Positions 1,346 to 40,978 of a stretch of DNA of 53,540 nt are shown here, in pieces; the first letter of the stretch is position 1, and each line of letters starts with the position of its first letter. Location of the stretch: NCBI GenBank assembly GCA_002067865.1, contig MVRC01000018.1:1-53540 (forward strand), given 5' to 3'. The position numbers and the translations under genes are program-made. Source of the stretch: Methanomassiliicoccales archaeon PtaU1.Bin124. Its GTDB lineage: Archaea > Thermoplasmatota > Thermoplasmata > Methanomassiliicoccales > UBA472. A model generated the notes under the pieces. It was not told where the DNA came from and made no database searches. It saw only the letters and a program-made list of their open reading frames with translations.

Positions 1346-1371
1346 ACGATAGGGCATTACTCAGAATCCAA

Positions 1372-1458
1372 GCGGAGATGGCCCAGCTCGGTAAGGCGTT
1401 GGATTGCTAATCCAATGTCCGAAAGGACTCGGGGGTTCAAATCCCCCTCTTCGCGCCA
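1372..1458 (+). tRNA. tRNA-Ser(GCU), 87 nt with encoded CCA
   Basis: Manual fold. Acceptor gcggaga pairs with tcttcgc (one G.U). D-stem is 3 bp (gcc/ggc) with GG in the D-loop. Anticodon stem ttgga/tccaa has loop ttGCTaa with U33. Long variable arm gtcc-gaaa-ggac is typical of class II Ser tRNAs. T-arm is ggggg-ttcaaat-ccccc, discriminator g, then cca. Confidence 0.85.
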
Positions 1459-1464
1459 CTTTTC
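1442..1464 (+). repeat. attL: 23-bp direct repeat (tccccctcttcgcgccacttttc) covering the tRNA-Ser 3' end (T-stem 3' strand, acceptor 3' strand, CCA) plus 6 nt downstream
   Basis: Perfect 23/23 identity with 17106-17128. The flanking catat is also shared, with a 2-nt offset. Confidence 0.8.
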
Positions 1465-1732
1465 ATATCCAGTATGTCAGATTTCTCAGTCAATCAGCGG
1501 TTTTTTGTACCGGACCGAGCCAGCAAAACACGTTACCGGACTTTAAGGGAAACATTTCAAGGGGATTAAGAGAAGATACGAGACCGCTACAAGGATTCGG
1601 CGGATTCATATCAAATTAATCCCCATTTATTTTTTCATGCTCGGTCTTGTTGCTATGATTCTCCATTGCGAATGTCCTTAAGCTAATCCTAAAGCTTTGA
1701 ACGACTTACAGCGTCAAAGTTGAGGGAAGAAA

Positions 1733-3253
1733 TTGGCTATTTCCAATCTGAATCACTTAAACGGTGACTTGAACGTCGGCACACTTGAGAACTGGCTCTG
1801 GGAAGCTGCCAACATCCTCAGGGGTCCAGTGGATGCTGCCGACTTTAAGACCTATATCTTCCCCATGCTCTTCTTCAAGCGCATATCTGATGTCTATGAT
1901 GAAGAGCATCAAGCTGCTCTAGACGAATCCGGTGGAGACGAAGAATATGCTTTGTTTCCTCAGAACTACCGTTTCCAGATACCGGATGGAAGTCATTGGG
2001 CCGATGTCCGTGCGGTCACTACCAATGTGGGCTCAGCCCTCCAGACGGCCATGAGAGGGATAGAGAAGGCGAATCCGGACACGCTTTACGGAATATTCGG
2101 TGATGCCCAATGGACCAACAAGGACCGTCTTCCGGACTCACTGCTCCGTGACCTAATCGAGCACTTCTCACAATACAACCTTGGAAACAAGAATGCACAA
2201 TCAGACATCCTAGGCCAATCTTATGAGTATCTGATTAAGAAGTTCGCTGACGCGACAAACAAGAAGGCTGGGGAGTTCTACACACCCCGGTCCGTTGTGC
2301 GGTTGATGGTCAACATCCTAGACCCTAAAGAGGGCGAGTCTATCTATGACCCTGCCTGTGGTACTGGCGGCATGCTTCTTGAGGCCGTCCATCATGTCAA
2401 GGTGAATCATGGTGATGACCGGACACTTTGGGGGAAGCTGTATGGCCAAGAGAAGAATCTTACCACATCTGCCATTGCTAGAATGAACTTGTTCCTTCAT
2501 GGCGCTTCTGATTTCCGTATCGTTCGTGGCGATACCCTTAGGCAACCCGCATTCCTTGCCAATGATGCATTGTCAACCTTTGATTGTGTGATTGCCAACC
2601 CACCTTTCTCATTGGAGAACTGGGGGGAAGAGGTATGGGCGAGTGACCCATACGGGCGGAACTTCGCAGGGATGCCACCGAACAAGAGCGGCGACTATGC
2701 ATGGGTACAGCATATGATACGTTCTATGGCGTCCAAGACCGGACGTATGGCGGTAGTGTTACCTCACGGTGCCTTGTTCCGGATGAACTCGGAAGGCCGG
2801 ATTCGTGAAAAAATACTCAAAATGGACATGCTTGAAGCGGTCATCGGGCTTGGGCCGAACCTGTTCTATGGCACCACCCTTGCTGCTTGTATTCTCGTTT
2901 TCCGCCAGCGTAAAATCGATGAGCGTAAACACAAAGTACTCGTAATTAACGCCTCGAAAGAGTTCAAGACTGGTCGTGCTCATAACGAGATGCTCTCGGA
3001 ACATATCGAGCATATCTATGGCTGGTATCATGATTTCAAGGACGTACCTGGCGTTGCCCGCGTCGTAATGCTTGATGAGATAGCCGCTAATGAGTATAAT
3101 CTCAACATTCCACGCTATATAGAATCAGATGTGGAGAATGATTCAATCTCACTTGACGAAGCCATGAAGCATCTGAGAAAAAGTGCAATAGATGCCTTTG
3201 CAGCCGAGGATAACCTAATTGAAATCCTCAAGCGGGAAGGGATGCTCCAATGA
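1733..3253 (+). CDS. hsdM: Type I restriction-modification methyltransferase subunit HsdM (N6-adenine MTase)
   Basis: TTG start preceded by gagggaag. Motif I DPACGTGGML, motif IV VIANPPFSL, and an HsdM N-terminal domain (ENWLWEAANILRG). The stop overlaps the next start (ATGA). Confidence 0.85.
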   Translation: MAISNLNHLNGDLNVGTLENWLWEAANILRGPVDAADFKTYIFPMLFFKRISDVYDEEHQAALDESGGDEEYALFPQNYRFQIPDGSHWADVRAVTTNVGSALQTAMRGIEKANPDTLYGIFGDAQWTNKDRLPDSLLRDLIEHFSQYNLGNKNAQSDILGQSYEYLIKKFADATNKKAGEFYTPRSVVRLMVNILDPKEGESIYDPACGTGGMLLEAVHHVKVNHGDDRTLWGKLYGQEKNLTTSAIARMNLFLHGASDFRIVRGDTLRQPAFLANDALSTFDCVIANPPFSLENWGEEVWASDPYGRNFAGMPPNKSGDYAWVQHMIRSMASKTGRMAVVLPHGALFRMNSEGRIREKILKMDMLEAVIGLGPNLFYGTTLAACILVFRQRKIDERKHKVLVINASKEFKTGRAHNEMLSEHIEHIYGWYHDFKDVPGVARVVMLDEIAANEYNLNIPRYIESDVENDSISLDEAMKHLRKSAIDAFAAEDNLIEILKREGMLQ

Positions 3254-5961
3254 CCACTCGTATCTCACAACAGCAGCTTGAATCCTATCTTTGGGGTGCC
3301 GCGACTCTCTTAAGGGGAACAATCGACGCGGGGGACTATAAACAATTCATCTTCCCGTTACTATTCTACAAACGTCTCTGCGACGTGTATGATGAGGAGA
3401 CTAAAACAGCACTGGTCGAATCTGAAGGCGATAAGGATTTCGCGGCGTACCCAGAGAATCATCGTTTCCAAATCCCAACCGATGCTCATTGGAACGAGAC
3501 TCGGACGGTATCAAAAAATGTTGGTGCTGCCCTGCAAAGCGCCTTGCGCACCATCGAGACCGCCAACCCAGACAAGCTATACGGCATCTTTGGAGATGCT
3601 CAGTGGACAAACAAGGAGCGTCTTCCCGATTCGTTGCTCCGTGACCTTATCGAGCACTTCAGTTCCTTGGAGTTGACCATTGCCAATCTCCCAGAAGATG
3701 AGCTTGGTAATGGCTACGAGTACCTGATTAAAAAGTTCGCGGACGATGCAGGTCACACTGCCGCGGAGTTCTATACAAATCGCACAGTAGTCCACTTGAT
3801 GACCGAGTTGCTCCAGCCGCAGCCAGGCGAGAGCATCTATGACCCAACTTGCGGTTCTGGAGGTATGCTGCTATCCTGTATTGCCCAATTGCGCAGACAA
3901 GGCAAGGAATGGCGCAATGTTCAGCTCTATGGCCAGGAGCGTAACCTAATGACCTCCTCCATAGCTCGGATGAATTGCTTTCTCCACGGCATCGAGGACT
4001 TCCGCATTGAACGGGGAGATACTCTTTCCGAACCAAAGTTCGTACAAAGAGACCATCTGCAGCAATTTGATGTTGTATTGGCGAACCCTCCTTACTCCAT
4101 CAAGCAATGGGACCGCGAGGCGTTCGCATCAGACCCATGGGGACGCAATATCCTGGGCACTCCTCCCCAGGGTAGGGCCGACTACGCTTTCTGGCAGCAT
4201 ATCATTAAAAGTATGAACCCTCAGACAGGAAGGTGTGCCATATTATTCCCACATGGTGTTCTATTTCGGAAGGAAGAAGAGAAGATGAGGCAGAAACTCA
4301 TTGAATCTGACCTTATCGAGTGTGTTATTGGCCTTGGGCCTAACCTCTTTTACAACTCCGCAATGGAAGCGTGTGTTATCATATGTCGTATGACCAAGCC
4401 GAACATGCGTCGTAATAAAATCCTCTTTATCAATGCTGTGAATGAAGTAACTCGCGAACGCGCCCAAAGTTATCTTACTGATAACCACATTGAACGAATT
4501 GTTAATGCATACAAAGTGTTCAAAAATGAACCTGGCTTTTCTAATGTTGCCTCATGGGATGAAATAAGGAATAATTTCAATAATCTGGGGGTCCAACTTT
4601 ACGTAAAAGAGGAGGTTACTAACAACTCGACTTTACACCCAGTGGATATACAATTGAATGAAACATTCTTCTCTTTTCTTAAAAACGCAAAATCAGTACG
4701 GAAATCTCTGTCATGTCTTGCCCCGTCCTTTAGAGATAATGATTACCATTCAATTAACCAAGAGGCCAAAATACATCAACCAGAATGGTTCAAGCGTTCT
4801 GAGTGGAAGACAGTGCGGCTTGGTGATGTGGCTGTTCGAGATACTGAAAGAATCGAGCCTGAAGGAGGGGCGGTCTATAGGTGGGTTGGTGCTGACCATA
4901 TTGATGAAGGGGACATACATGTTCGTCGCTGGGGTTATACAACGGACCCATTGTTTCCACCTACATTTCGTTATACGTTTAAAGCTGGCCATGTCTTAGT
5001 ACATTCACGTAACCCGAATAAAGTAACCATTCCAGATTTTAACGGCATTACGGGAGAAAAATTATTTGTCTTGAAATCGAAAGATAGTTCGTTACTACGT
5101 GAAGATACCCTTGCATTTGTCTTGATGTCTTCATACTTTAAGAAGTGGGCGTCACAATGGTCGTCTGGGTCTGTAAATAGATTCCTAAATTGGTCGGCTC
5201 TTGAAAAGTTGGAGTTCCAACTCCCGCCACTCGACCAGCAACGCCGAATCGCTGAAATACTATGGACTGTGGATGATAATATCGCGAAAGGCCAGGCATT
5301 ATATGATTCTTTAAAATTATTACGCAAGGCAATACTTGATTGTGGGTTCTCACCAGACGTCGAGAAACAGAGTTTGGGGGATATAGTTGATTATGCATCA
5401 GACGGACCATTTGGTTCTAAACTTAAAACAGAACACTATGCGTCCTCTGGTGCTCGAGTGATTAGATTACAGAATATCGGTGATGACTACTTTGATGACA
5501 CTGAAAAAGCATTCATTCCCCTAGATTATTATGAAGAGATGCGTCGTTATGAAGTTCGTGGTGGAGATATTATTGTAGCTGGACTAGGTGATGATACTCA
5601 CCCTGTTGGAAGAGCGGTATTGGTTCCAAATGATATTGGCCCAACCATTAACAAGTCTGATTGTTTTTGTATCCGCTGTACGCCTAGTAAAATCTTAAAC
5701 TCATTCCTTATTTATTATCTTAATAGTAAAGAAGGCAGAGAACAAGTTCTCGCACTGGCCCAAGGTACTACACGTTTACGAATCAATGTAGGAAATATCA
5801 AGACCATACTCGTTTCATTACCACCACTTAGCGAACAAAAACAAAGAGTGGACCAATTGGAAAGAGTTGATATGGCTATTGCAGTGGTTAAACAAACCTT
5901 GGAGGATATTAATCATTTATTATGCGAGTTGATTAATAATATCTTCGAGGAGAGATTATGA
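3250..5961 (+). CDS. HsdM-HsdS fusion: a second N6-adenine MTase module (~aa 1-480) fused to a specificity subunit with two target-recognition domains
   Basis: The N-terminal half is ~60% identical to the upstream HsdM (shared LYGIFGDAQWTNK.RLPDSLLRDLIEHFS, DPTCGSGGML, LANPPYSIKQW). The C-terminal ~400 aa has two TRDs. Each is followed by a conserved HsdS-type motif (LEFQLPPLDQQRRIAEILWTVDD and LVSLPPLSEQKQRVDQLERVD). Confidence 0.8.
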   Translation: MTTRISQQQLESYLWGAATLLRGTIDAGDYKQFIFPLLFYKRLCDVYDEETKTALVESEGDKDFAAYPENHRFQIPTDAHWNETRTVSKNVGAALQSALRTIETANPDKLYGIFGDAQWTNKERLPDSLLRDLIEHFSSLELTIANLPEDELGNGYEYLIKKFADDAGHTAAEFYTNRTVVHLMTELLQPQPGESIYDPTCGSGGMLLSCIAQLRRQGKEWRNVQLYGQERNLMTSSIARMNCFLHGIEDFRIERGDTLSEPKFVQRDHLQQFDVVLANPPYSIKQWDREAFASDPWGRNILGTPPQGRADYAFWQHIIKSMNPQTGRCAILFPHGVLFRKEEEKMRQKLIESDLIECVIGLGPNLFYNSAMEACVIICRMTKPNMRRNKILFINAVNEVTRERAQSYLTDNHIERIVNAYKVFKNEPGFSNVASWDEIRNNFNNLGVQLYVKEEVTNNSTLHPVDIQLNETFFSFLKNAKSVRKSLSCLAPSFRDNDYHSINQEAKIHQPEWFKRSEWKTVRLGDVAVRDTERIEPEGGAVYRWVGADHIDEGDIHVRRWGYTTDPLFPPTFRYTFKAGHVLVHSRNPNKVTIPDFNGITGEKLFVLKSKDSSLLREDTLAFVLMSSYFKKWASQWSSGSVNRFLNWSALEKLEFQLPPLDQQRRIAEILWTVDDNIAKGQALYDSLKLLRKAILDCGFSPDVEKQSLGDIVDYASDGPFGSKLKTEHYASSGARVIRLQNIGDDYFDDTEKAFIPLDYYEEMRRYEVRGGDIIVAGLGDDTHPVGRAVLVPNDIGPTINKSDCFCIRCTPSKILNSFLIYYLNSKEGREQVLALAQGTTRLRINVGNIKTILVSLPPLSEQKQRVDQLERVDMAIAVVKQTLEDINHLLCELINNIFEERL

Positions 5962-8876
5962 CATTCACAGAATCAACTACAGTCGAGCAGATGATTATCG
6001 ACTCTGTAACAAGAATAGGCGAGGCTGATGGATGGATTTACAAATCTCCCTCGGAACTACCACGAAGCTTGACTGACGTGATAGTTGAAAAGTGGTTGCG
6101 CGAAGCTTTAACCCATCTTAATCCCGAAATTAAAGCTCAGCCTGACCGAGCGGACGAAGTCATATACAACCTTCGAGCCATTTTACTCTCGGTGGGTGCC
6201 GATGGTCTTGTTCGAGCAAATGAGAATTTCACCGCCTGGCTTCGCGGTGAGAAGACCATGCCTTTCGGCCCGAACGGTGAGCATGTGCCAGTGCGTCTTA
6301 TTGATACAGACCAACCACTGAATAACCACCTTGTCGTCACCAACCAATGGACCTTCCAAGCAGGACCGTTGGAGAAGCGTTTCGATGTGGTCTTCGTGGT
6401 CAATGGTCTACCACTGATAATCGGTGAGGCGAAGACGCCGACTCGTAGCGCTGTAACTTGGTTCGATGGCGCATTCCAAATCAATCAGATTTACGAACGG
6501 GACGTTCCCGCTATGTTCGTGCCTAACGTCTTTTCCTTCGCTACCGAAGGCCGCCTATACCGATATGGCTCTATCCGTATGCCTATCGATATGTGGGGCC
6601 CCTGGCGTGATGACGATAATAGGGACGAAGGGCAGATGTATCATGTCAAAGCCACACTCAAGAGCATGTTGAGGCCAGAAGTGGCGTTGGACATCATGCA
6701 GAACTTCACCCTCTTTGCCACCGACAAAAAGCATCGGCGCATCAAGATAATCTGCCGTTATCAACAGTTCGACACGGTGAACAAGATTGTTGCGCGGGTC
6801 GTGGCAGGTTATCCGAAGAAAGGTCTGATATGGCATTTCCAGGGTAGTGGTAAGTCACTGTTAATGGTATTCGCCGCACAGAAGCTTAGGCTGCATCCAA
6901 AGCTCGGCAACCCTACGGTAATGATAGTGGTGGACCGAATCGACCTTGATACGCAGATAACGGCAACATTCAACGCTACAGACGTTCCGAACATGGTCGC
7001 CGTAGAAACGAGAGAGGAGCTTCAAACCCTATTAGCTCAGGACGCACGTAAGGTCCTCATCACCACGATTTTTAAGTTCGCCGAGGCAGGCGGGCGATTG
7101 AACGAGCGTTCTAACATCGTCGTGATGGTCGATGAGGCCCACCGGACACAGGAAGGGGACCTAGGCCGCAAAATGCGTGATGCATTGCCGAACGCCTTCC
7201 TCTTCGGTCTGACGGGCACTCCAATCAATCGGGCGGACAGGAACACTTTCTGGGCCTTCGGCGCGGATGAGGATGAGAAAGGTTACATGAGCCGTTACTC
7301 ATTCCAAGAATCCATACGCGACAAAGCGACTCTGCCCTTGCATTTTGAAGCGCCAGAAGTACGGCTCAAGATTGACCGTGCCGCCATAGACGAAGCGTTC
7401 AAGAACCTAACTGACGAGCTTTCTGACCAGGACCGCGATGACCTGGCGAAGAAGGCAGCAAAGATGGCCGTGCTGGTCAAGAACCCGGAACGAGTCCATG
7501 CGGTGGTTAAGCACATGGTCACTCATTTCCAGGAAAAGGTGGAGCCGAACGGGTTCAAGGCACAGGTCGTGGTCTTCGACCGTGAGTGCTGCGTACTTTA
7601 CAAACAAGTCATGGACGAGCTGATTGGTCCGGATGCCAGCGCCATAGTCATGACCACCGCATCTGCGGACCCGCCGGAATGGAGGCAGTACGAGCGTAGC
7701 AAGGATGATGAGGAGAAGTTGCTGGACCGATTCCGGGACCCAGCAGACCCTCTCAAGTTCGTTATCGTCACCAGCAAGCTCCTTACAGGCTTCGATGCCC
7801 CTATCCTTCAGGTAATGTACCTTGATAAGCCGATGAAGGACCACACTCTGCTTCAGGCCATATGCCGTACCAACCGTACATTCGGACCGGAGAAGACCCA
7901 TGGCCTCATCGTCGACTATATCGGCATATTCGATGATGTTGCCCGTTCGCTCGATTTCGACGAGAAATCGATGCATGAGGTTGTATCAAACATCGAGGAG
8001 CTTCGCAAGGCGTTACCGATACAGATGCAGACCTGTCTGGCGTTCTTCCCAGGCGTTGATAGGACCATTACGGGATATGATGGCTTGATGGCTGCACAGC
8101 AGTGCCTACCGAATAATGACGTTCGGGATAAGTTCGCATCTCAGTACACGATACTCGGGACCATATGGGAAGCCCTTTCACCCGATTCATGTCTCACCCC
8201 ATACGAGACAGATTACCGTTGGCTCACGCAGGTCTACGAGTCCGTAAGGCCGGTCAGCGGCAACGGTAAGCTGCTTTGGCATGCCCTGGGCGCTAAGACA
8301 ATCGAACTCATCAATCAGAACGTCCACCTTGACTCGGTGCGCGACGACGTGGAAACACTGGTCCTTGATGCCCAGATGCTCGAAGAGATTCTCAACGACA
8401 AGAACCCCGGTGAAAGGGCAAGGAAAGTTGAGATAATTTTAGTTGCCAGATTGTACAAGCATGTTGGCAATCCAAAGTTCACTGAACTGGGCAAGCGGTT
8501 AGAGCAAATCAAGGAACGTCATGAGAAAGGTCTCCTGACAAGTCTGGAGTTCCTTAAGCAAATACTCGAACTTGCCAAGGATGTGGTCGAAGCGGAGAAG
8601 GAGACCGACCCTGAGGAGGAGAGAGACAGGGCCAAAGAAGCACTTACCGAGCTGTTCAACGAAGCGAAGAACACGAATACACACATCATCGTTGAACGCA
8701 TCGTTGCCGACATCGACGACATTGTAAAGAAGGTGCGGTTCCCTGATTGGCAGCATACTTCTCAAGGCGAGCGGCTAGTGCAAAGAGAACTACGGAAAAC
8801 TCTGCTTAAGTACAAATTGCACACCGACCAGGAGCTGTTCGACCGGGCATATGGTTACATCAAACAATATTATTAA
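5958..8876 (+). CDS. hsdR: Type I restriction enzyme R subunit HsdR (SF2 helicase/endonuclease)
   Basis: 972 aa. Walker A GSGKSLLMV, DEAH box VMVDEAHRTQ, helicase motif III GLTGTP. Start overlaps the M-S fusion stop (ATGA). Completes an operon-like hsdM/hsdMS/hsdR trio. Confidence 0.85.
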   Translation: MTFTESTTVEQMIIDSVTRIGEADGWIYKSPSELPRSLTDVIVEKWLREALTHLNPEIKAQPDRADEVIYNLRAILLSVGADGLVRANENFTAWLRGEKTMPFGPNGEHVPVRLIDTDQPLNNHLVVTNQWTFQAGPLEKRFDVVFVVNGLPLIIGEAKTPTRSAVTWFDGAFQINQIYERDVPAMFVPNVFSFATEGRLYRYGSIRMPIDMWGPWRDDDNRDEGQMYHVKATLKSMLRPEVALDIMQNFTLFATDKKHRRIKIICRYQQFDTVNKIVARVVAGYPKKGLIWHFQGSGKSLLMVFAAQKLRLHPKLGNPTVMIVVDRIDLDTQITATFNATDVPNMVAVETREELQTLLAQDARKVLITTIFKFAEAGGRLNERSNIVVMVDEAHRTQEGDLGRKMRDALPNAFLFGLTGTPINRADRNTFWAFGADEDEKGYMSRYSFQESIRDKATLPLHFEAPEVRLKIDRAAIDEAFKNLTDELSDQDRDDLAKKAAKMAVLVKNPERVHAVVKHMVTHFQEKVEPNGFKAQVVVFDRECCVLYKQVMDELIGPDASAIVMTTASADPPEWRQYERSKDDEEKLLDRFRDPADPLKFVIVTSKLLTGFDAPILQVMYLDKPMKDHTLLQAICRTNRTFGPEKTHGLIVDYIGIFDDVARSLDFDEKSMHEVVSNIEELRKALPIQMQTCLAFFPGVDRTITGYDGLMAAQQCLPNNDVRDKFASQYTILGTIWEALSPDSCLTPYETDYRWLTQVYESVRPVSGNGKLLWHALGAKTIELINQNVHLDSVRDDVETLVLDAQMLEEILNDKNPGERARKVEIILVARLYKHVGNPKFTELGKRLEQIKERHEKGLLTSLEFLKQILELAKDVVEAEKETDPEEERDRAKEALTELFNEAKNTNTHIIVERIVADIDDIVKKVRFPDWQHTSQGERLVQRELRKTLLKYKLHTDQELFDRAYGYIKQYY

Positions 8877-8902
8877 TAAAAATATTTTTAAATTTTATCT
8901 AT
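8877..8902. terminator. AT/T-rich convergent intergenic spacer between hsdR (+) and pAgo (-)
   Basis: aaatatttttaaattttatctatctagatataatatttaaat: oligo-T tracts on both strands, as in archaeal intrinsic terminators. Confidence 0.3.
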
Positions 8903-10456: not shown

Positions 10457-11807
10457 CGGTCTCCTCATCGATTTGCTTGCCGTCGGTCTCTTCATCACCT
10501 TGAGGAGCTGCTTTCTCTTCGATGATGTGAACAGGCATGGTGTATTGCTCCAGCCGAGGAGAGATTTGTATTTGTTCCTCGGGTAGGTTACCGATAATAA
10601 TCCGGTCGTCGTCACCGGTCAGTAGTTGGACGATGGCCAGTTGATAGTTCAATAAGTTTGGATTCCACCAATACTTCGTTACTTTCTTGGACCTTGAGTT
10701 CTGACCTCGACCCTGTATTGGCGAACCGTCACCGTTGGTAACGAACGCCGAGAGATTGATGATAACATAATATCCAAGGGTGCGACCCCCTCTGACCCTG
10801 AAAGTCGGACTGAGGCTCCAGAGATAGTTTGTTATTTCTCCAGTCCGCAACCTAATTTTCCTCTGGCCACAAACAGCTCTCCATGTTTTTATTCCGTTGA
10901 AATCGATTAGGTGCACTTTGTTCTCTGCTTTATCGCCAGAGAATGGAAAATAGAACGAGGCTCTCTTTTGCTCGATTCCGACAAGCCCCCTCTCCCAGCA
11001 TTTTAACGATATGCTGTTCTCTAGTAAGTTGGAGATGACGGTGTGTATTGGAATCCCCTTAATGGATGATACATTTACCCATTCAATCTTCTGAGAGCCA
11101 TCCATCGGGCATTCATTCAGAATATCATCTGGAGGAGACATGAATGATAGAACACAATACTTGCTGACCCAGTAGAAGGGCCATTTCTTCAACCAATGTC
11201 TGGTGCCAGAAAAGGTCGTTGGTTGTGAAGTTTCAAACACATTAACATACCGAGGTATTGATTCCACCCTTAGTATGTTCGAGAAAACGGGTTCCATCTC
11301 CTCAACCAAGTAAGTTTTTTCATCTGGCAAATGAGAAAATGAACACATTTCCGTACTTTTTCTTGGAGTTTGGATGGATTCTAACTTCTTTATAAGACCA
11401 CTATATCCCTGAGCCCAACCGTGATTGAATGGAATGAAGGTTATATCACTTGTCATCCAATCGAGCTGAGTGGGTGATAAACCATCAAAATTGATGGGTA
11501 CCAGGAAGTCAGCAACTCGAAGTTCCTCCCCCATTCTCAAAGCTATGGTCCGTTCTTTGCTAGGGAGAGGCTTCACAATTGATTGTTCCGAGAGTATGGC
11601 AATCACACGGAATGCACGTTTGATTGCGACATCAATATCCCGAGGATACGACTCACCACCTAGGAGTTTTATCCTATCGCACCAAACATTAAATCCATCA
11701 GCTATCAGCTTTGAACATAACCAATCGATAAAATAACCCTGTTCCGAAGCATAACTGATGAACAGATGGTCTCTTTGAACCTCGATTCTATGTTCTTCCC
11801 CCGCCAT
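10419..11807 (-). CDS. TIR-APAZ protein: N-terminal TIR domain (putative NADase) fused to an APAZ domain; SPARTA partner of the short pAgo
   Basis: TIR signature DHLFISYASEQGYFIDWLCSKLIADGFNVWCDRIKLLGGESYP..AIKRAFRVIAILSEQS near the N-terminus. The C-terminal ~300 aa is APAZ-like. ATG at 11807 (MAGEEHRIEV...) is preferred over the upstream ATG at 11903, which adds a hydrophobic 32 aa. Confidence 0.75.
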   Translation of the reverse strand: MAGEEHRIEVQRDHLFISYASEQGYFIDWLCSKLIADGFNVWCDRIKLLGGESYPRDIDVAIKRAFRVIAILSEQSIVKPLPSKERTIALRMGEELRVADFLVPINFDGLSPTQLDWMTSDITFIPFNHGWAQGYSGLIKKLESIQTPRKSTEMCSFSHLPDEKTYLVEEMEPVFSNILRVESIPRYVNVFETSQPTTFSGTRHWLKKWPFYWVSKYCVLSFMSPPDDILNECPMDGSQKIEWVNVSSIKGIPIHTVISNLLENSISLKCWERGLVGIEQKRASFYFPFSGDKAENKVHLIDFNGIKTWRAVCGQRKIRLRTGEITNYLWSLSPTFRVRGGRTLGYYVIINLSAFVTNGDGSPIQGRGQNSRSKKVTKYWWNPNLLNYQLAIVQLLTGDDDRIIIGNLPEEQIQISPRLEQYTMPVHIIEEKAAPQGDEETDGKQIDEETDDDSMEGEDSSG

Positions 11808-12129
11808 CGAAGGATGAGGAACCTGCTTACTTATTATGATTGACGCTGTAGAATGCACAATAAGAAGACGAACGTTAAAGATGGTCAGAAATAGGGCCTG
11901 CATCGAATCATTACGTGGTTCGTCTTACCATTCACCCACGTGAGTGAAGAACATCCGCCCGTATGAGTGAAGTGCGACGAAACGATGTCGAACTATGTTC
12001 ATATCATGTTCACAGAAAGGGCCGAAAGCAGCACAGAGGACAGCTCGCATGGAGTATTCACGTAGAACATATACGGACCTTATTGTATCCTGAAAATTGT
12101 ATATATTTCTATAATGAGTATCCAGATAC

Positions 12130-12339
12130 ATGAAGAATAAGTCTCTAGTGATTGATGAAAAATTATATGATAAATTGGTGAAGGAAGTCGGTTATCCCAC
12201 CAAGACCAAGATGAGAATCGATGTTCAGATGGCACTTGCCATGTTCGAGAACGGTTGGTCATATCGACAGATTGGCGAACACTTCGGTGTTTCCGGTATT
12301 ACTGTTAAAAGGCGCATGCGAGGCGCAGGCATCATCTAG
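12130..12339 (+). CDS. Small HTH DNA-binding protein (resolvase/sigma-70 region-4-like HTH)
   Basis: 69 aa. C-terminal GWSYRQIGEHFGVSGITVKRRMRGAG is a classic HTH. Its AT-rich upstream region with TATA-like tracts (12080-12125) is shared divergently with TIR-APAZ. Confidence 0.5.
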   Translation: MKNKSLVIDEKLYDKLVKEVGYPTKTKMRIDVQMALAMFENGWSYRQIGEHFGVSGITVKRRMRGAGII

Positions 12340-13318
12340 TTGCATCTACTTGGTGCAACCTATAGCATGGCAATGCTACCGTCGATATGATTATCGGCTC
12401 ATTCATGCTCATAAGAGGTTTTAGTATCATCGAGACGCGTTCCGATACCATCGAGTCGCTCTCTTGACTGATTTTCTTTATTCCGTTTTTACCTTTGTTG
12501 ACTTTTCTGATTTCTTTGGCTAGCTCCTTATCCTCTATGACCAACCCTAATCCATTGTTATTGTAAAGTTCCTTCATCGGTTTAAGAATGCCCAGTTCAT
12601 CGAGAAAACATTCATTCAATTTATTCGGTCCCAATCGTCGAACCTTGCCCAGGTACGGTCCATCTGATAATCTTACATGGTCTTGGTGCTCTTGGTCAGG
12701 TCCGATAATTTCCTCTTCAATGACCCAGCCCAGTTGTACCAGTTCCTCATCCAATCGTTCATGGAGCTTCATCATGTTGTATACCTTTTCCTGGACCGGC
12801 ATCTTTGAAACCTTGACGTTAATGATGTCTTCCCTTGCTCTCCTCTGGATTTCATTGATGGCAGCAATAGCCCATTTTCCGCTGAGTTCCCTTGTGCACT
12901 TCACTACATCGGCCCTGAACGTATCCGTATAGGATATGCCCCAGGAGACTGGGTAGATAATTTTGACGTTCTCATCGTCATCGGCTTTTCCGTTATCTAC
13001 CTCATTGGCCGTTAATATCGCCCTGCTTAAGTCAGTGGATAAGGGGAGCCGTTCGATTTTATCGAGGTAAAAATTCTTTCCTCGCTTCTTGACGAGCTTC
13101 CTTTCGACCAATACATTCATGATTCGGTGAAGACGCGCTTTATCGACAGTTCTGTTCTTGCCAGTACGCATTTCTCCTTGGAGTGGTATCCCAATTAATA
13201 ACAACTCACTTTCAGTAATACCTTCTCCAAAGATATTTTTTGAAGAGATAATAGCCAGTACTTTAGAGTATGGCTTCCTCAACATTAATTCCTTACGGGT
13301 CAACTTATGCCTGGACAT
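12332..13318 (-). CDS. Hypothetical protein with an N-terminal winged-helix domain (island cargo; possible regulator or replication/partition factor)
   Basis: 328 aa clean ORF. The wHTH-like segment is TGKNRTVDKARLHRIMNVLVERKLVKKRGKNFYL. No other motif recognised. Confidence 0.45.
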   Translation of the reverse strand: MSRHKLTRKELMLRKPYSKVLAIISSKNIFGEGITESELLLIGIPLQGEMRTGKNRTVDKARLHRIMNVLVERKLVKKRGKNFYLDKIERLPLSTDLSRAILTANEVDNGKADDDENVKIIYPVSWGISYTDTFRADVVKCTRELSGKWAIAAINEIQRRAREDIINVKVSKMPVQEKVYNMMKLHERLDEELVQLGWVIEEEIIGPDQEHQDHVRLSDGPYLGKVRRLGPNKLNECFLDELGILKPMKELYNNNGLGLVIEDKELAKEIRKVNKGKNGIKKISQESDSMVSERVSMILKPLMSMNEPIIISTVALPCYRLHQVDATR

Positions 13319-13386
13319 ACAATTTGTATATGGTTGTCAATAATAATAAATTTCACTATCTAGTCGAAATCGACAATCTCCAATCC

Positions 13387-13620
13387 ATGAGATTGTTGGT
13401 GAATGTTCGAGTGAGTGCTCAGCTGATGGAACGTGCGAACACCGTGGCCGAGGCCGAGGATATGACCCCGGAACAGTTGGTCGACCACGCTATACGAAGC
13501 TATGTGGAGAGATGGGAGGACACCTTGGAGTCCGACGACGAGGCGTCCGAGGAGGACTCGGAGAATGATTCTGAGGACGACCTGGCCGATGAGGACCAGG
13601 ACCAAGAAACTGAAGACTGA
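13387..13620 (+). CDS. Ribbon-helix-helix (CopG/Arc-like) protein with an acidic C-terminal tail
   Basis: MRLLVNVRVSAQLMERANTVAEAEDMTPEQLVDHAIRSYVERW has an RHH beta-alpha-alpha pattern. It is followed by a D/E-rich tail. ATG at 13387 is preferred over the upstream start at 13270. Confidence 0.5.
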   Translation: MRLLVNVRVSAQLMERANTVAEAEDMTPEQLVDHAIRSYVERWEDTLESDDEASEEDSENDSEDDLADEDQDQETED

Positions 13621-13967
13621 CCAGGGGTGATTTCAATGGAAACGAATAATGTAAGCAACGACAAGGGCTTGTCCCGAGCCATCATCCTGAGGTGCTCGGA
13701 CCTTGCCTTTATTAATTTATTAGAGTTAATAAAAGGCTACCCGCAATGCTACCTGGTGTTCACCAAGTCCAGCCCTTTGAAGCTTGTTGTCAAGGAAGAA
13801 GGCTGGTAACGTGGATTCCAGACCGTACGGTCTGCATCACATACTTCGCGAGTACGAATATGTGGCTCAGGCCGAATTAGGGTTGATACTCAACAGTGGT
13901 TCCGTGGATACCAACTTCCAGAGGATTCAATCTGGCCCAGGTGTAATCCCGGTCCAATACCAAAAAT

Positions 13968-15128
13968 TTGGATTTGACTTGGTTTTTAGGGGTGCCCTCC
14001 GTGCGTAAGGAGGTCAAGCACACCGCCCATAGCATCGAGGTCTACCATCTAGCGATAGACGGCCGGGCACATGATGCAGGTTATACAATTCCTGAGATAG
14101 CCAAGTTAACTGGTTTGAATAAAGAAACGGTAAGGCTCATACTTAAGCAGCATGAGATGGACGGTTATGTTATTAGGAATCCTAGAACTAAAAGTCCGAT
14201 ATTCTTCAAAAGGGGTCCTTCGGCAAACGTTATTGACGAGGTTGTTACCGATTCCAAGACCAAATGTGATGACGATGAGACCGTCGATTCCAATGCAAGC
14301 GAGCGGTGTCAAAACCAAAAAAGGTCAACCCGTGTTAAGCCGGTCATAACCGAGGTGCATACTCTACGGACCCATCTGAACGGTCGGGTGCATTTCGAGG
14401 TCTATAAGATTGGAGACATGCAAACGATAAGGGAGCCGGACGGGAAGGGTGGTTACATCAACATTGCCCTGTTCCCCAAGTCACCCTATCGGACTCACCA
14501 CAACACTCAGTCCTGGAAGGCAACGATACTCACTGATGGTGTGCCGGTTAAAATCGATTTATTCGAGTCTAAAAGCCGTACATTATTAATTGTCTTCCCC
14601 CCGGAACAGGAATTGACGCAGGACCAACTGGCCGCCGCTAAGGACCTCTTGAAGAATAGAGCAGAGCAGGCGGTCGCCATCCTCTCGAAGTACGGTGGTT
14701 GGCTCCTTGGAGAGCCAGTTCTAGTCGGTACGGTAGAGTATGCCGACCAGGACTGCCTGTTGGCGAAGTATCTGCCAGATATGCCGAAGACACAAGGTTC
14801 ACACCTATGGAGGGACAATTCACACGGCTGCTCCGAGGATGAAACAAACAAACCTGCAATCGGAGAATGGCTTGCCAACTTCCTGAGAAAGGCCGACAAG
14901 GTAGAGTCTAAGCTGGACGAGCACGACAACAGACTATCATCAGCTGAAGAATCTCTGATACTTGTAGCCATAATTCTTGACAAACAAATTCAACTTAAGC
15001 AACTGGAGATAGAAGCTGCTAAAGCAGCGTCTGGTTGCGGCCAAACCAAGACACAAAACGAAGAATCATACACCTCCGGGATGGCAAAGAAGGACATCAA
15101 GGAGAAGCACGAGGTGATGTATCGATGA
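13968..15128 (+). CDS. Hypothetical protein with an N-terminal HTH (island cargo)
   Basis: 386 aa ORF. Its N-terminal segment YTIPEIAKLTGLNKETVRLILKQHEMDGYVIRNP is HTH-like and the rest is unrecognised. Start uncertain. Confidence 0.4.
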   Translation: MDLTWFLGVPSVRKEVKHTAHSIEVYHLAIDGRAHDAGYTIPEIAKLTGLNKETVRLILKQHEMDGYVIRNPRTKSPIFFKRGPSANVIDEVVTDSKTKCDDDETVDSNASERCQNQKRSTRVKPVITEVHTLRTHLNGRVHFEVYKIGDMQTIREPDGKGGYINIALFPKSPYRTHHNTQSWKATILTDGVPVKIDLFESKSRTLLIVFPPEQELTQDQLAAAKDLLKNRAEQAVAILSKYGGWLLGEPVLVGTVEYADQDCLLAKYLPDMPKTQGSHLWRDNSHGCSEDETNKPAIGEWLANFLRKADKVESKLDEHDNRLSSAEESLILVAIILDKQIQLKQLEIEAAKAASGCGQTKTQNEESYTSGMAKKDIKEKHEVMYR

Positions 15129-15294
15129 GTCTCCAGCAAACGGATGCCAAGATGCCTTTGCATGTCGAGATGTCACCTATGTCTCAGATGCTGTGCCCTC
15201 TAGCCAGTTTCATTTCCTGCTCATTATGCCCCTTCGTCCACCTTTGCCATGGCCGAGGTGGATGTCCGACAAACGGAAGAAATGGGGTGTGCCC

Positions 15295-15891
15295 ATGCGG
15301 GTAGCGCTTTACCCCCGAGTATCTAGGTCTGACAAGGACCAGAATCCCGAGAATCAATTGATTAAGCTCAGGGAATTTGTCATCAGGAAGGGATGGACCA
15401 TCTACGGCGAATATGTCGATTTCGCCAGCGGGGCAGCTCCCTCCCGACCTGCCTTCGACAGGATGATGGCCGAGGCGAGAGGACGGCATTTCGACATAAT
15501 CCTTGTCGTCAGGATAGATAGGATGGCCCGTTCGGTCAATCAATTGCTGAATATATTGGAGAAATTGAATAATTACGGGGTCAGCCTGATATGCACTGAC
15601 CAGGACATCGACACCAACAGCCCGACCGGCAAGTTACTTTTCACCATCCTTGGCGCAGTTGCCGAGCTAGAATTGGAATTAATCCGGGAGAGAACGAAGG
15701 ATGGATTGGCCAGGGCGAAAGCCCAGGGAAAGCGCTTGGGAAGGCCGCCGAACCCGGCCTTGACCGAGCAAATCACTCGTATGAGAGAAGAAGGGCTGAG
15801 CTACAGAGAAATCGGCTTACAGGTCGGATTAAGCCATCAAGCGGTCAAGAAGCGCCTCGTACGGGCGGGGTACAAAAAGGGGTCGAGTTAG
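15295..15891 (+). CDS. Small serine recombinase (resolvase/invertase family)
   Basis: Catalytic motif MRVALYPRVSRSDKDQNPENQ (YxRVS..Q). C-terminal HTH LSYREIGLQVGLSHQAVKKRL. ATG at 15295 is preferred over the upstream start at 15193. Confidence 0.8.
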   Translation: MRVALYPRVSRSDKDQNPENQLIKLREFVIRKGWTIYGEYVDFASGAAPSRPAFDRMMAEARGRHFDIILVVRIDRMARSVNQLLNILEKLNNYGVSLICTDQDIDTNSPTGKLLFTILGAVAELELELIRERTKDGLARAKAQGKRLGRPPNPALTEQITRMREEGLSYREIGLQVGLSHQAVKKRLVRAGYKKGSS

Positions 15892-16060
15892 GGAGATGAG
15901 GCCAGCACGAAGGGGGGCAACATCCCAAGGCGGGGCTACAATAACGGTCGATAAGTTTACATCCCCTTTCGATGATTCTTCGGCCGAGGGCGCCGACAAT
16001 GTATCGAAAAGAAGGCGTCCTAGTGCGCACGGTGTCGGGCGTAAGAGGGGGAGGCGTTCA

Positions 16061-17098
16061 ATGGGGCGCTATCCTTTCCTGACCTATGCGATGAAGTATC
16101 TGGAGAAGAGGAAGTCATTGGCGCCATCAAGCAAAGAGGACTACGAACGTAAGGCCCGGTTCCTTAATCGGACATTCGTAGACCTCCAAAGGGTCGGCAC
16201 GGTCAGCACATCAAATCCCAAGGGTATGACCAAGGCCGACATCTTCGCCTACATCCAGTGGATGAGGGCAGAGGAGCTTGAGGGGTCATATATGGCGAAG
16301 AATCTGGGATTCCTTAAGCAGATATGCGCCTACGCTGGAAACAATGTATTTGCACAGATAGCGGCCGATGGCGAGGAATTGCCTAAGAGGACTCCAAAGG
16401 ACCTAAACTCGTTGAGCGAGGATGACCTCAAGCTCATCTTTGAGAAGGTTGAGGAGCTTAAGGGCTGGGAAGGGGAAGTAATCAGATTCCTGATGTGGAT
16501 GTACCCCTTTACTGGTCTAAGGGCTTCAGAGCTAAGACTGGCTCAAGTGGAAGACATCAACCTCCAAGAATGGTCTATCTTCGTCAGGCATCCCAAGGGT
16601 GAGATAAGGTACGGGAAGAAGAGAAAGGCCCCCATACTGCCTCCGGCGAGGAAAGCGGTCATACGCTTCCTCAAAGCGAGGGAGCAACGGCTCAAGTCTC
16701 TAGGTATCAGTAAGTGCGTGGCACTGATACCGGCGAGGCATAGAGACGGAACGGCGGGCTTCTACTGCTCGAACGCCTTTAGGAACATGAAGAAGGAAAT
16801 AATGGAAAAAGTGAACATGGACCTTGAGGACAGAAGATTGGACTTCCACATCAAGACCATGAGAGACACCTTCATCCAGATGTGCATCGATAAGAACCCG
16901 GATAAGACCCCGGCAGTTTCGATGGTATCGGGTCACTCAACGACCAAGACCACCGAGACCACATACGGGCGCATTAGGAACAATCGGGCGCTGTCGGACG
17001 TGCAAAAACTATGGGGTGACGATATATCGGGGCCAGCACCCGAAAATGTCAAAAACCCCTTGATTGAAAAGAAGTTTGACATATCTGGATACGCGTAG
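16061..17098 (+). CDS. int: Tyrosine recombinase / phage-type integrase
   Basis: C-terminal catalytic region has R (MRDTFIQMC), H-x-x (SGHSTTKTTETTYGRIR) and a Tyr nucleophile. The N-terminal SAM-like core-binding domain is present. The gene ends 8 nt before attR. An alternative upstream start is at 15896. Confidence 0.8.
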   Translation: MGRYPFLTYAMKYLEKRKSLAPSSKEDYERKARFLNRTFVDLQRVGTVSTSNPKGMTKADIFAYIQWMRAEELEGSYMAKNLGFLKQICAYAGNNVFAQIAADGEELPKRTPKDLNSLSEDDLKLIFEKVEELKGWEGEVIRFLMWMYPFTGLRASELRLAQVEDINLQEWSIFVRHPKGEIRYGKKRKAPILPPARKAVIRFLKAREQRLKSLGISKCVALIPARHRDGTAGFYCSNAFRNMKKEIMEKVNMDLEDRRLDFHIKTMRDTFIQMCIDKNPDKTPAVSMVSGHSTTKTTETTYGRIRNNRALSDVQKLWGDDISGPAPENVKNPLIEKKFDISGYA

Positions 17099-17105
17099 GG
17101 GCATG

Positions 17106-17128
17106 TCCCCCTCTTCGCGCCACTTTTC
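17106..17128 (+). repeat. attR: second copy of the 23-bp tRNA-Ser 3'-end repeat
   Basis: tccccctcttcgcgccacttttc is identical to 1442-1464. No complete tRNA structure lies upstream of it. Confidence 0.8.
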
Positions 17129-40954: not shown

Positions 40955-40978
40955 TTGATTCCTCCTCCAACACTCTCT

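What the first reader, a model, noticed from the sequence alone, without database searches (positions are those of the whole stretch)
1442..17128. tRNA-Ser-targeted integrated defence element bounded by a perfect 23-bp direct repeat
The 3' 23 nt of tRNA-Ser(GCU) plus 6 nt downstream (tccccctcttcgcgccacttttc, 1442-1464) recur exactly at 17106-17128, 8 nt after the stop of a tyrosine integrase gene. The ~15.7 kb between them carries hsdM/hsdMS/hsdR, TIR-APAZ/pAgo, four small DNA-binding or unknown proteins, and a serine resolvase. The restriction and Argonaute genes are conspicuously AT-rich relative to the flanking chromosome. This is a classic attL/attR configuration. The integrase is at the tRNA-distal end. 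No capsid or terminase genes are present, so this is an integrative plasmid or defence-island type element rather than a provirus.
Basis: seen in the sequence. Interest (0 to 1): 0.7.

Follow-up and report, generated by a model that had tools for sequence, protein, structure and literature searches.

The report
Archaeal tRNA-Ser integrated defence element
A 15.7-kb mobile element carrying two anti-virus/anti-plasmid systems (Type I restriction-modification and SPARTA) has inserted into the end of a serine tRNA gene of a methanogen-related archaeon; the mechanism is textbook, but the element's backbone belongs to an undescribed archaeal family.

Summary
An exact 23-nt direct repeat lies at 1442-1464 and 17106-17128. 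It consists of the last 17 nt of tRNA-Ser(GCU) plus 6 nt downstream, and it brackets 15.6 kb of lower-GC DNA (0.48 against 0.57).

- **Unoccupied sites.** Relatives keep the 16S/tRNA-Ser arrangement without the insert.
- **Shared architecture.** Homologous integrases sit at the tRNA-distal end of other islands with the same layout, for example at tRNA-Lys with its own exact 23-nt repeat.
- **Modular evolution.** The same backbone and cargo occur in another metagenome, but with a 31%-identical integrase next to a different tRNA.

The two larger backbone proteins are near-orphans, and I found no virion, replication or conjugation genes.

Verdict: a genuine integrated archaeal element carrying defence genes. 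It is a new member of a known kind and of moderate interest. Excision was not demonstrated.

The parts
1..771 (-). 5' half of an archaeal 16S rRNA gene (left chromosomal flank; the contig starts inside it)
   Evidence: Rfam RF01959, 762 bits. 96% identical to the 16S of L083 and 88% to that of a Methanomassiliicoccaceae MAG.
1372..1458 (+). tRNA-Ser(GCU), intact; the integration target
   Evidence: ARAGORN; Rfam tRNA, 57 bits.
1442..1464 (+). attL core: 17 nt of the tRNA 3' end plus 6 nt
   Evidence: Exact 23-nt repeat, 0 expected by chance.
1465..1732 (+). Left end of the element (putative P' arm). It contains a CCAGTA...CAGTCAATCAGCGGTTTTTTG motif shared with elements that carry related integrases.
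   Evidence: Alignment with L081, L084 and L085. A binding function is inferred.
1733..3253 (+). hsdM, the free Type I methyltransferase subunit
   Evidence: Pfam N6_Mtase 6e-102 and HsdM_N; PADLOC MTase_I 2e-171.
3250..5961 (+). hsdM-hsdS fusion: a methyltransferase joined to two target-recognition domains
   Evidence: Pfam N6_Mtase, HsdM_N and 2x Methylase_S. End-to-end match to the 896-position PADLOC model PDLC03038. The M part is 53% identical to the free HsdM.
5958..8876 (+). hsdR, the Type I restriction/translocase subunit
   Evidence: Pfam HSDR_N, SWI2_SNF2 and T1R_D3-like; PADLOC REase_I 2e-136.
8903..10456 (-). Short pAgo (MID-PIWI) of SPARTA. The maximal ORF runs to 10615; the likely start is Met54/55 of that ORF.
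   Evidence: PADLOC pAgo_I 1e-164. Full-length match (4-507 of 507) to solved SPARTA pAgo chains at 1e-104. Translation.
10419..11903 (-). TIR-APAZ partner of SPARTA; the likely start is about Met33 of the ORF
   Evidence: Pfam TIR_2 2e-16. PADLOC Aga_TIR-PNTD1-PNTD2 4.5e-55 over residues 43-485. PDB SPARTA TIR-APAZ chains, with the Glu of the 'KE' motif aligned.
12130..12339 (+). p69, a small HTH protein (backbone)
   Evidence: Pfam HTH_23 / Sigma70_r4. 71% and 66% identical to its counterparts in L086 and L088.
12332..13318 (-). p328, a backbone protein of unknown function with a probable N-terminal winged helix
   Evidence: No Pfam, PHROG or PADLOC hit. Only 3 cluster representatives in 1.84 billion, one of them its own 100%-identical cluster. 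The AF2 model is weak and only residues 1-88 look ordered. Colinear homologues in L086 and L088.
13270..13620 (+). p116, an Arc/CopG-like (RHH) protein with an acidic tail; the conserved part starts at about 13390
   Evidence: Weak PHROG Arc-like repressor and Pfam CopG hits. Homologues in L086 and L088.
13627..13809 (+). p60, a small conserved backbone protein of unknown function
   Evidence: 89% and 84% identical to its counterparts in L086 and L088.
13968..15128 (+). p386 (375 aa as called by NCBI): N-terminal winged HTH, a beta-rich middle and a C-terminal long helix; function unknown, candidate replication or regulation protein
   Evidence: Besides its own NCBI record (P0121), only one homologue in 5.8 billion protein clusters: P0122, 51% identical, with HTH_24/MarR_2. 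AF2 pLDDT 35. Only HTH-level PDB hits.
15295..15891 (+). Small serine recombinase (resolvase/invertase type); a conserved backbone gene
   Evidence: Pfam Resolvase 6e-42 with a C-terminal HTH. PHROG DNA invertase 2e-51. PDB matches to Gin, gamma-delta and Tn3 resolvases. 76% identical in both L086 and L088.
16061..17098 (+). Tyrosine integrase, intact (the maximal ORF starts at 15896)
   Evidence: Pfam Phage_integrase. PHROG integrase 2e-25. R154, K179, R268, H292 and Y302 are invariant in 21 homologues. 157 homologues, mostly unnamed; the named ones are from Methanomassiliicoccales or Euryarchaeota.
17106..17128 (+). attR core, the second copy of the 23-nt repeat
   Evidence: The downstream sequence CCATATTTCTCTGATAATTTC matches the sequence directly after tRNA-Ser in the unoccupied site of L002.

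Best explanation
This is an integrated mobile genetic element of about 15.66 kb in the chromosome of a Methanomassiliicoccales archaeon.

**How it got there.** Its tyrosine integrase recombined an attP core, which lies 7 nt past the integrase stop codon, with an identical 23-bp attB made of the last 17 nt of tRNA-Ser(GCU) plus 6 nt. This is the lambda / pNOB8 'type II' mode: the integrase gene stays intact, the tRNA is regenerated at attL, and the core is duplicated at attR.

**How it is built.**
- A 5-kb backbone (11.9-17.1 kb) holds small HTH and RHH regulators, two near-orphan winged-helix proteins, a small serine resolvase and the integrase.
- A 10.4-kb defence payload holds a Type I R-M system (free M + M-S fusion + R) and a SPARTA system (TIR-APAZ + short pAgo).

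**What is shown.** The repeat, the tRNA target, gene identities, the compositional contrast, unoccupied sites in relatives, the family-wide architecture, and exchange of the integrase module.

**What is inferred.**
- The integrase still excises and integrates the element.
- The resolvase resolves multimers of a circular form.
- One of the orphan proteins supports replication or regulation.
- R-M cleaves unmethylated invaders, and SPARTA depletes NAD(P)+ on guide-directed recognition of invading DNA. Both would protect the host and stabilise the island.
For: **Repeat and target**
- The exact 23-nt repeat is unique in the window, with 0 expected by chance.
- It overlaps the 3' end of tRNA-Ser(GCT).

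**Integrase**
- The integrase is intact, with invariant R...K...KxxR...H...Y residues.
- attR begins 7 nt after its stop codon.

**Composition**
- GC is 0.477 inside the element and 0.566 outside.
- The flanks are core archaeal genes: 16S rRNA, MiaB-like methylthiotransferase, archaeosine TGT, EF-2 and PolD.

**Unoccupied sites**
- L002 (Methanomassiliicoccus MAG) has 16S / tRNA-Ser / MiaB-like / tRNA-Gln with about 1.7 kb in place of 18 kb. The roughly 30 nt after its tRNA match the window's attR-distal flank.
- L082 and L083 (16S 96% identical to the window) have the tRNA plus the same 23-nt core, followed by cellular genes.

**Mobility**
- The integrase of L085 is 83% identical, while the neighbouring MiaB-like gene is only 58% identical.
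- L081 has a related left end at the same tRNA.
- L087 shows the same layout at tRNA-Lys(CTT), with its own exact 23-nt repeat 3 nt after the integrase stop.

**Backbone and cargo as a unit**
- L086 and L088 are colinear with the window.
- L088 keeps hsdR (88%), pAgo (87%) and the resolvase (76%) but has a 31%-identical integrase beside a different tRNA end.

**Defence genes**
-.
Against: - There is no direct evidence of excision: no attP or attB junction reads, and no episomal contig. The 23-mer is absent from IMG/VR.
- No unoccupied-site allele from the same species was found.
- Beyond about 30 nt, the L002 flank no longer aligns.
- No replication, partition or transfer gene could be recognised, and structure prediction of both orphan proteins failed. 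How the element spreads between cells is therefore unknown.
- The window is a MAG contig, so it reflects a population consensus.
- The activities of the R-M system, SPARTA, the resolvase and the integrase are all inferred from homology.
Confidence: 0.8

Rival explanations
1. It is a fixed (domesticated) genomic island. The element did integrate by the tRNA/integrase route but is no longer mobile, and is kept only for its defence genes.
For: No circular or episomal copy turned up in any collection. No recognisable replication or transfer genes. In L088 the p386 homologue is called only as its C-terminal half, which suggests backbone decay in at least one relative.
Against: The 23-nt repeats are still perfect. 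All backbone ORFs, the integrase and the resolvase are intact with catalytic residues. Integrase identity (83%) far exceeds host-gene identity (58%) in L085, which implies recent horizontal movement of at least the integrase module.
Confidence: 0.15
2. It is an integrated archaeal virus or virus satellite whose structural proteins are too divergent to recognise. p386 or p328 would be virion or packaging proteins, or the element would be mobilised by a helper virus.
For: Archaeal virus proteins often lack detectable homologues. p386 and p328 are near-orphans. p386 is predicted to have a beta-rich core and a long coiled helix (low confidence).
Against: There are no PHROG hits to structural or packaging families, except a marginal scaffold hit for the acidic tail of p116. 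The integrase and p386 have no relatives in IMG/VR or in phage records. Both orphans begin with winged-helix DNA-binding domains. Only about 5 kb of non-cargo DNA is available.
Confidence: 0.04
3. The repeat is a chance match or an assembly artefact, and the region is ordinary chromosome or a chimeric contig.
For: The window is a metagenome-assembled contig.
Against: 0 of 100 shuffles give a second copy. The repeat sits exactly at a tRNA 3' end and exactly past an integrase stop. The same geometry recurs in L087 and, with core variants, in L084 and L085. A 23-nt repeat is too short to cause a misjoin in a typical assembly (inference).
Confidence: 0.01

Closest known systems
Type II (pNOB8 / lambda-like) archaeal integrative elements that target tRNA genes (classification reviewed in Badel et al. 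2021, PMC8371274)
   Same: A tyrosine integrase that stays intact after integration. The att core equals the 3' part of a tRNA gene. Direct repeats flank the element, and the tRNA is regenerated.
   Different: Box II of this integrase reads KxxR (K-T-M-R), the consensus quoted for SSV1-type enzymes, not the YxxR of pNOB8-type. The integrase has no detectable relative in plasmid or phage records. The host order, Methanomassiliicoccales, is not mentioned in that review. The backbone shares nothing recognisable with pNOB8.
SPARTA (short pAgo + TIR-APAZ; Koopal et al. 2022, PMC9097488; solved structures such as 8fex, 8ifk, 8qlo)
   Same: A two-gene operon with TIR-APAZ upstream of a short MID-PIWI Argonaute. 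The pAgo aligns over its full length to solved SPARTA pAgos (1e-104). The TIR domain has the aligned Glu.
   Different: It is encoded on an archaeal integrative element. Figure S1 of Koopal et al. lists bacterial phyla only. The closest named homologues here (54-57% identity) are largely archaeal (Micrarchaeota, Methanocella, ANME-1, Nanoarchaeia) plus Chloroflexi. The APAZ part is divergent from the solved proteins.
Classical Type I restriction-modification systems (EcoKI-like, M2S1R2)
   Same: HsdM, HsdS (two TRDs) and HsdR domains are all present and ordered as one operon.
   Different: HsdS is fused to the C-terminus of a second HsdM paralogue, 53% identical to the free HsdM. The likely methyltransferase is therefore M + M-S. 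An engineered EcoKI M-S fusion has been studied (PMC3510504), and a PADLOC model covers natural fusions of this length.
Bacterial tRNA-linked defence or genomic islands (P4-like integrase islands)
   Same: A tRNA 3'-end target, low-GC cargo made of defence systems, and no virion genes.
   Different: The host is an archaeon. The integrase lies at the tRNA-distal end with attP immediately after its stop codon. A conserved small serine resolvase is part of the backbone.

Membership tests
tRNA-targeting integrative element with a type II (intact-gene) tyrosine integrase | Tyrosine recombinase with the catalytic R / K / xxR / H / Y residues | tested here: met
   Pfam PF00589. R154, K179, R268, H292 and Y302 are invariant across 21 homologues; sequence read.
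tRNA-targeting integrative element with a type II (intact-gene) tyrosine integrase | Direct repeats that duplicate the 3' part of a tRNA gene and bracket the element | tested here: met
   Exact 23-nt repeat, 17 nt of it inside tRNA-Ser(GCT).
tRNA-targeting integrative element with a type II (intact-gene) tyrosine integrase | Related genomes with the same neighbourhood but without the insert | tested here: met
   L002 has the same synteny and a matching 30-nt flank. L082 and L083 have the tRNA plus core followed by cellular genes. These are only genus- to family-level relatives, not the same species.
tRNA-targeting integrative element with a type II (intact-gene) tyrosine integrase | Excision to a circular attP form and a restored attB | not testable with these tools
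   No reads are available. The core 23-mer is absent from IMG/VR, and the three metagenome hits are all tRNA-linked.
SSV-type (type I, 'suicidal') archaeal integrase element | att site inside the integrase ORF, so that integration splits the gene | tested here: not met
   The integrase ORF is continuous (16061-17098), and the core lies 7 nt beyond its stop codon.
SPARTA | Short pAgo (MID-PIWI only) of the SPARTA clade | tested here: met
   PADLOC pAgo_I 1e-164. Matches residues 4-507 of 507 in solved SPARTA pAgos at 1e-104.
SPARTA | Adjacent TIR-APAZ gene in the same operon | tested here: met
   The TIR-APAZ ORF (10419-11903) overlaps the start of the pAgo gene. PADLOC Aga_TIR-PNTD1-PNTD2 4.5e-55; Pfam TIR_2.
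SPARTA | Catalytic glutamate of the TIR NADase | tested here: met
   E117 (ORF numbering, in 'SKE') aligns with the 'KE' glutamate of the solved TIR-APAZ 8qlo. That this is the catalytic residue rests on prior knowledge of SPARTA.
SPARTA | Guide-dependent NAD(P)ase activity and loss of the DEDX slicer tetrad | not tested
   The activity needs biochemistry, and the tetrad positions were not examined residue by residue.
Type I restriction-modification system | HsdM, HsdS (two TRDs) and HsdR functions encoded together | tested here: met
   NPPF/NPPY and DPxCGxGG motifs are present in both M moieties.
Type I restriction-modification system | Three separate subunit genes (classical organisation) | tested here: not met
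   S is fused to a second M (903 aa, end-to-end match to PADLOC PDLC03038), and there is an additional free M.
Small serine recombinase (resolvase/invertase) | N-terminal resolvase catalytic domain with the Ser nucleophile, plus a C-terminal HTH | tested here: met
   Pfam Resolvase 6e-42 and HTH hits. The N-terminus reads MRVALYPRVSRSDK. PDB matches to Gin, gamma-delta and Tn3 resolvases. The res or inversion site was not identified.
Provirus (head-tailed or other recognisable virus) | Capsid, portal, terminase or other virion genes | tested here: not met
   All ORFs are accounted for. There are no structural PHROG or Pfam hits, and no relatives in IMG/VR or phage records.
Conjugative element (ICE) | Relaxase, coupling protein or VirB4-type ATPase | tested here: not met
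   No such domains appear in any ORF of 1465-17105.

The most novel reading that the evidence does not exclude
The conserved backbone (p69, p328, RHH protein, p60, p386, serine resolvase) may define an undescribed family of small plasmid-like integrative elements of Methanomassiliicoccales. In this reading one of the orphan winged-helix proteins is a new kind of replication initiator. The family would retarget itself to different tRNA genes by swapping integrase/att cassettes, while carrying a fixed Type I R-M + SPARTA payload between methanogen lineages.
Probability: 0.3. Interest if true: 0.5.

Novelty: new member of a known kind. Interest (0 to 1): 0.35.

Why it matters
Mobile elements of Methanomassiliicoccales, methyl-reducing methanogens found in guts and digesters, are barely characterised. 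The 2021 review of archaeal tyrosine recombinases does not mention the order at all.

This locus offers three things:
- It gives a cleanly delimited element with a defined attB/attP core and an integrase that could serve as a genetic tool for these hard-to-manipulate archaea.
- It shows a SPARTA system and an M + M-S Type I system travelling together on an archaeal element.
- It documents exchange of the integrase module between otherwise colinear elements.

None of this overturns current understanding. It extends a well-known mechanism to a new host group and a new backbone.

Tried and rejected
- **Exact-protein look-ups.** The 400-aa integrase ORF and the 692-aa flank protein are not on record.
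- **Structure prediction.** AlphaFold models of p386 (pLDDT 35) and p328 (pLDDT 43) were too poor for fold searches. Profile searches against PDB gave only HTH-level hits or none.
- **Known plasmids, phages and viral contigs.** The integrase has no match in PLSDB plasmids or in phage/virus records. Integrase and p386 profiles have no relatives in IMG/VR.
- **Phase-variable hsdS 'shufflon' driven by the resolvase.** Rejected: no inverted repeats flank the TRDs.
- **A second island at tRNA-Ala.** A 16-mer with 2 mismatches lies at 45455. Rejected: it sits inside a NOG1-type GTPase gene, and the intervening 12 kb encodes only cellular proteins with no integrase.
- **SPARTA as a recent import from bacteria.** Not supported: the closest named homologues are mostly archaeal.


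Full report
**1. The observation**

The 23-mer TCCCCCTCTTCGCGCCACTTTTC occurs at 1442-1464 and 17106-17128 and nowhere else in the window. This holds with three mismatches allowed, and none of 100 dinucleotide-preserving shuffles gave any match. ARAGORN and Rfam place tRNA-Ser(GCU) at 1372-1458. The repeat is therefore the last 17 nt of the tRNA, including the encoded CCA, plus 6 nt downstream.

The similarity extends imperfectly upstream, to 38 nt at 82% identity. The integrase ORF ends at 17098, 7 nt before the second copy.

**2. The host is an archaeon**

- Positions 1-771 (minus strand) are the 5' half of an archaeal 16S rRNA gene.
- The right flank encodes a MiaB-like tRNA methylthiotransferase, tRNA-Gln, archaeosine tRNA-guanine transglycosylase, aEF-2 and the PolD large subunit.
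- The integrase is 100% identical to a protein from a 53,540-bp contig of 'Methanomassiliicoccales archaeon PtaU1.Bin124', which identifies the window.
- The partial 16S is 96% identical to that of metagenome contig L083 and 88% identical to that of a Methanomassiliicoccaceae MAG.

**3. Gene content**

| Gene | Coordinates | Note |
|---|---|---|
| hsdM | 1733-3253 | free methyltransferase subunit |
| hsdM-hsdS fusion | 3250-5961 | two TRDs; end-to-end match to a PADLOC model |
| hsdR | 5958-8876 | |
| short pAgo | 8903 to about 10456, minus strand | matches 4-507 of 507 in solved SPARTA pAgos at 1e-104 |
| TIR-APAZ | 10419-11903, minus strand | the Glu of the TIR 'KE' motif is aligned |

The two M moieties are 53% identical, and both keep the SAM-binding and NPPF/NPPY motifs.

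The remaining 5 kb encodes:
- p69, a small HTH protein;
- p328, with a probable N-terminal winged helix;
- an Arc/CopG-like protein with an acidic tail;
- p60;
- p386, with a winged HTH at its N-terminus;
- a 198-aa serine recombinase of the resolvase/invertase type (15295-15891);
- the tyrosine integrase, most likely 345 aa from 16061.

In a 21-sequence alignment the integrase residues R154, K179, R268 (within K-T-M-R), H292 and Y302 are invariant.

No ORF matches virion, terminase, relaxase, conjugation or known replication families.

**4. Composition**

The element has 0.477 GC and the right flank 0.566. The backbone (0.487), R-M (0.484) and SPARTA (0.454) regions are all low. The hsdS part is lowest, at 0.41.

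**5. Is it an insertion?**

In L002, an uncultured Methanomassiliicoccus MAG, the order is 16S 5' end (minus strand), tRNA-Ser(GCU), about 1.7 kb, MiaB-like, tRNA-Gln. This is the same neighbourhood without the 15.7 kb. The roughly 30 nt directly after that tRNA (TCATATTTTTTGATAATTTCCTC) match the sequence directly after the window's attR (CCATATTTCTCTGATAATTTCTC). Beyond that point the alignment decays.

A scan of metagenome contigs for the 23-mer found three contigs, all at tRNA-Ser next to a 16S gene:
- In L082 and L083 the core is followed by cellular genes, an FAD/Fe-S oxidoreductase and glutamate-synthase-like proteins.
- In L081 the core is followed by a sequence related to the window's left end (CCAGTA...TCAATCAGCGGTTTTTTG). 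That indicates a related element at the same site in another population.

The repeat is thus not a dispersed motif, and unoccupied sites exist. They come from genus- to family-level relatives, not from the same species.

**6. The integrase family and its architecture**

The integrase has 157 homologues at E ≤ 1e-5. Most are unnamed, and the named ones are from Methanomassiliicoccales or Euryarchaeota MAGs. None is in plasmid, phage or IMG/VR collections.

- **L087.** This 1.29-Mb Methanomassiliicoccales contig carries a 53%-identical integrase at the distal end of a 9.2-kb island. The island is bounded by an exact 23-nt repeat that overlaps tRNA-Lys(CTT), and the second copy lies 3 nt after the integrase stop. 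This is the same geometry with a different tRNA.
- **L085 and L084.** Their integrases are 83% and 75% identical. Each is followed by the same core, with one mismatch in L085 and truncated to 15 nt in L084. Next comes sequence resembling the window's left end, an attP-like junction embedded in chromosomal contigs. I read these as tandem or remnant elements.
- **Discordant identities.** The MiaB-like gene of L085 is only 58% identical to the window's, while its integrase is 83% identical. That discordance argues for horizontal movement.
- **L082 as counterpart of L084.** L084 resumes homology with L082 about 2.4 kb after its core, so L082 is its unoccupied counterpart.

**7. The backbone and cargo as a unit**

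p386 has a single homologue among 5.8 billion protein clusters. p328 has two homologous clusters among 1.84 billion representatives, apart from its own.

The p386 homologue lies on L086, which is colinear with the window from p69 to the resolvase. Identities there are p69 71%, p328 31%, RHH 41%, p60 89%, p386 51% and resolvase 76%.

The closest pAgo (87%) lies on L088. That contig is colinear over the whole element:

| Gene | Identity to the window (%) |
|---|---|
| hsdM-S | 51 |
| hsdR | 88 |
| pAgo | 87 |
| TIR-APAZ | 73 |
| p66 (= p69) | 66 |
| p304 (= p328) | 26 |
| p70 (RHH) | 37 |
| p65 (= p60) | 84 |
| C-terminal half of p386 | 42 |
| resolvase | 76 |
| integrase | 31 |

For hsdM-S, only the M part aligns at the DNA level and the TRDs are diverged. 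The L088 integrase is followed by the reverse complement of a different tRNA 3' end.

Backbone plus payload therefore form a persistent unit, and the integrase/att cassette has been exchanged. The resolvase is a conserved backbone gene, better conserved than the integrase. This fits a role in the element's own maintenance, such as multimer resolution of a circular form, but that role is inferred.

**8. SPARTA in archaea**

Koopal et al. 2022 list bacterial phyla for SPARTA. The named homologues closest to this pAgo (54-57% identity) come from Micrarchaeota, Methanocella conradii, ANME-1 and Nanoarchaeia, as well as Chloroflexi. This is therefore a clade with many archaeal members rather than a one-off import from bacteria.

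**9. Mechanism**

*Shown:* a tRNA-Ser 3'-end target, duplication of a 23-bp core, an intact integrase next to attR, foreign composition, unoccupied sites in relatives, and a recurring architecture.

*Inferred from established knowledge of tyrosine integrases, Type I R-M and SPARTA:*
- The integrase recombines attP with attB in the lambda / pNOB8 'type II' manner, regenerating the tRNA.
- The small HTH and RHH proteins regulate the element or act as directionality factors.
- The resolvase resolves multimers.
- M + M-S forms an M2S1-equivalent methyltransferase that works with HsdR.
- SPARTA depletes NAD(P)+ after guide-directed detection of invading DNA.
- Both systems also stabilise the island.

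How the element transfers between cells is unknown.

**10. Comparison and novelty**

Functionally this is a type II archaeal integrative element. It is not an SSV-type element, because the att site lies outside the integrase ORF. Its box II nevertheless reads KxxR, the consensus quoted for SSV1-type integrases.

It is not a recognisable provirus or ICE. The kind of element is well known. The host order, the near-orphan backbone, the integrase-cassette exchange and the M + M-S / SPARTA payload make it a new member of that kind.

**11. Dead ends**

- Structure predictions for p386 and p328 were unusable.
- A suspected second island at tRNA-Ala was dismissed.
- No hsdS inversion repeats were found.
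- No same-species unoccupied-site allele and no episomal form could be found with the capped scans.

Noticed in passing
window 1733-5961: The Type I system has a free HsdM plus a second HsdM paralogue (53% identical) fused to HsdS. One M plus one M-S would reproduce the usual M2S1 stoichiometry. The S half has the lowest GC (0.41) and is the only cargo part not alignable at the DNA level with the L088 copy, which suggests TRD exchange.
   Followed up: partly
L084 1589-3974; L085 2317-9170: In two related contigs the integrase stop is followed by the core and then by sequence resembling the window element's LEFT end. This is an attP-like junction inside chromosomal DNA, with 2-7 kb of extra genes before the host flank (HFX_2341_N/FUSC_2 in L084; IS110 and zinc-ribbon proteins in L085). 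They are probably tandem or remnant elements at the same tRNA-Ser site.
   Followed up: partly
L088 1-13717: A Logan contig (SRR18053989) carries the same backbone and the same R-M + SPARTA cargo (hsdR 88%, pAgo 87%). Its integrase is only 31% identical and abuts the reverse complement of a different tRNA 3' end (ACTCGGGTTCAAATCCCGGCGCCCGCA). The integrase/att module has been swapped.
   Followed up: partly
L087 1688-10988: A 9.2-kb island in a 1.29-Mb Methanomassiliicoccales contig is bounded by an exact 23-nt repeat overlapping tRNA-Lys(CTT). A 53%-identical integrase sits at the distal end, and the cargo includes a SacI-like restriction enzyme domain.
   Followed up: partly
L089 and L090, about 10001-11100: Two further integrase homologues (47-49% identical) close clusters of many small ORFs plus an 880-1198-aa orphan protein. 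Both are followed by a shared GACACATTCTGGGGAATGTGAGA sequence. No tRNA lies within 10 kb, and the target was not identified.
   Followed up: no
window 1-1458: The contig begins inside a 16S rRNA gene that is transcribed divergently from tRNA-Ser. The 16S / tRNA-Ser pairing is conserved in L002, L004, L081 and L083. tRNA-Ala(UGC) lies alone at 33266-33342, not next to this 16S gene.
   Followed up: partly
window 45455-45470: A copy of the tRNA-Ala 3' 16-mer with 2 mismatches lies 12 kb downstream of that tRNA (about 0.03 expected by chance). It sits inside a NOG1-type GTPase gene, and the interval holds only cellular genes, so I treat it as chance.
   Followed up: yes
window 17491-19569 and 39857-41482: The gene abutting attR encodes a 692-aa SPFH/Band-7 protein with no NCBIfam match. 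A second stomatin/NfeD pair lies at 39.9-41.5 kb. L002 has no counterpart of the 692-aa gene at this position.
   Followed up: no
window 8903-10615: The window's own pAgo was not returned at 100% identity in the protein collection (best hit 87%), unlike the integrase and p386 of the same contig. It may be uncalled or called differently in the public record. The ORF itself is intact.
   Followed up: no
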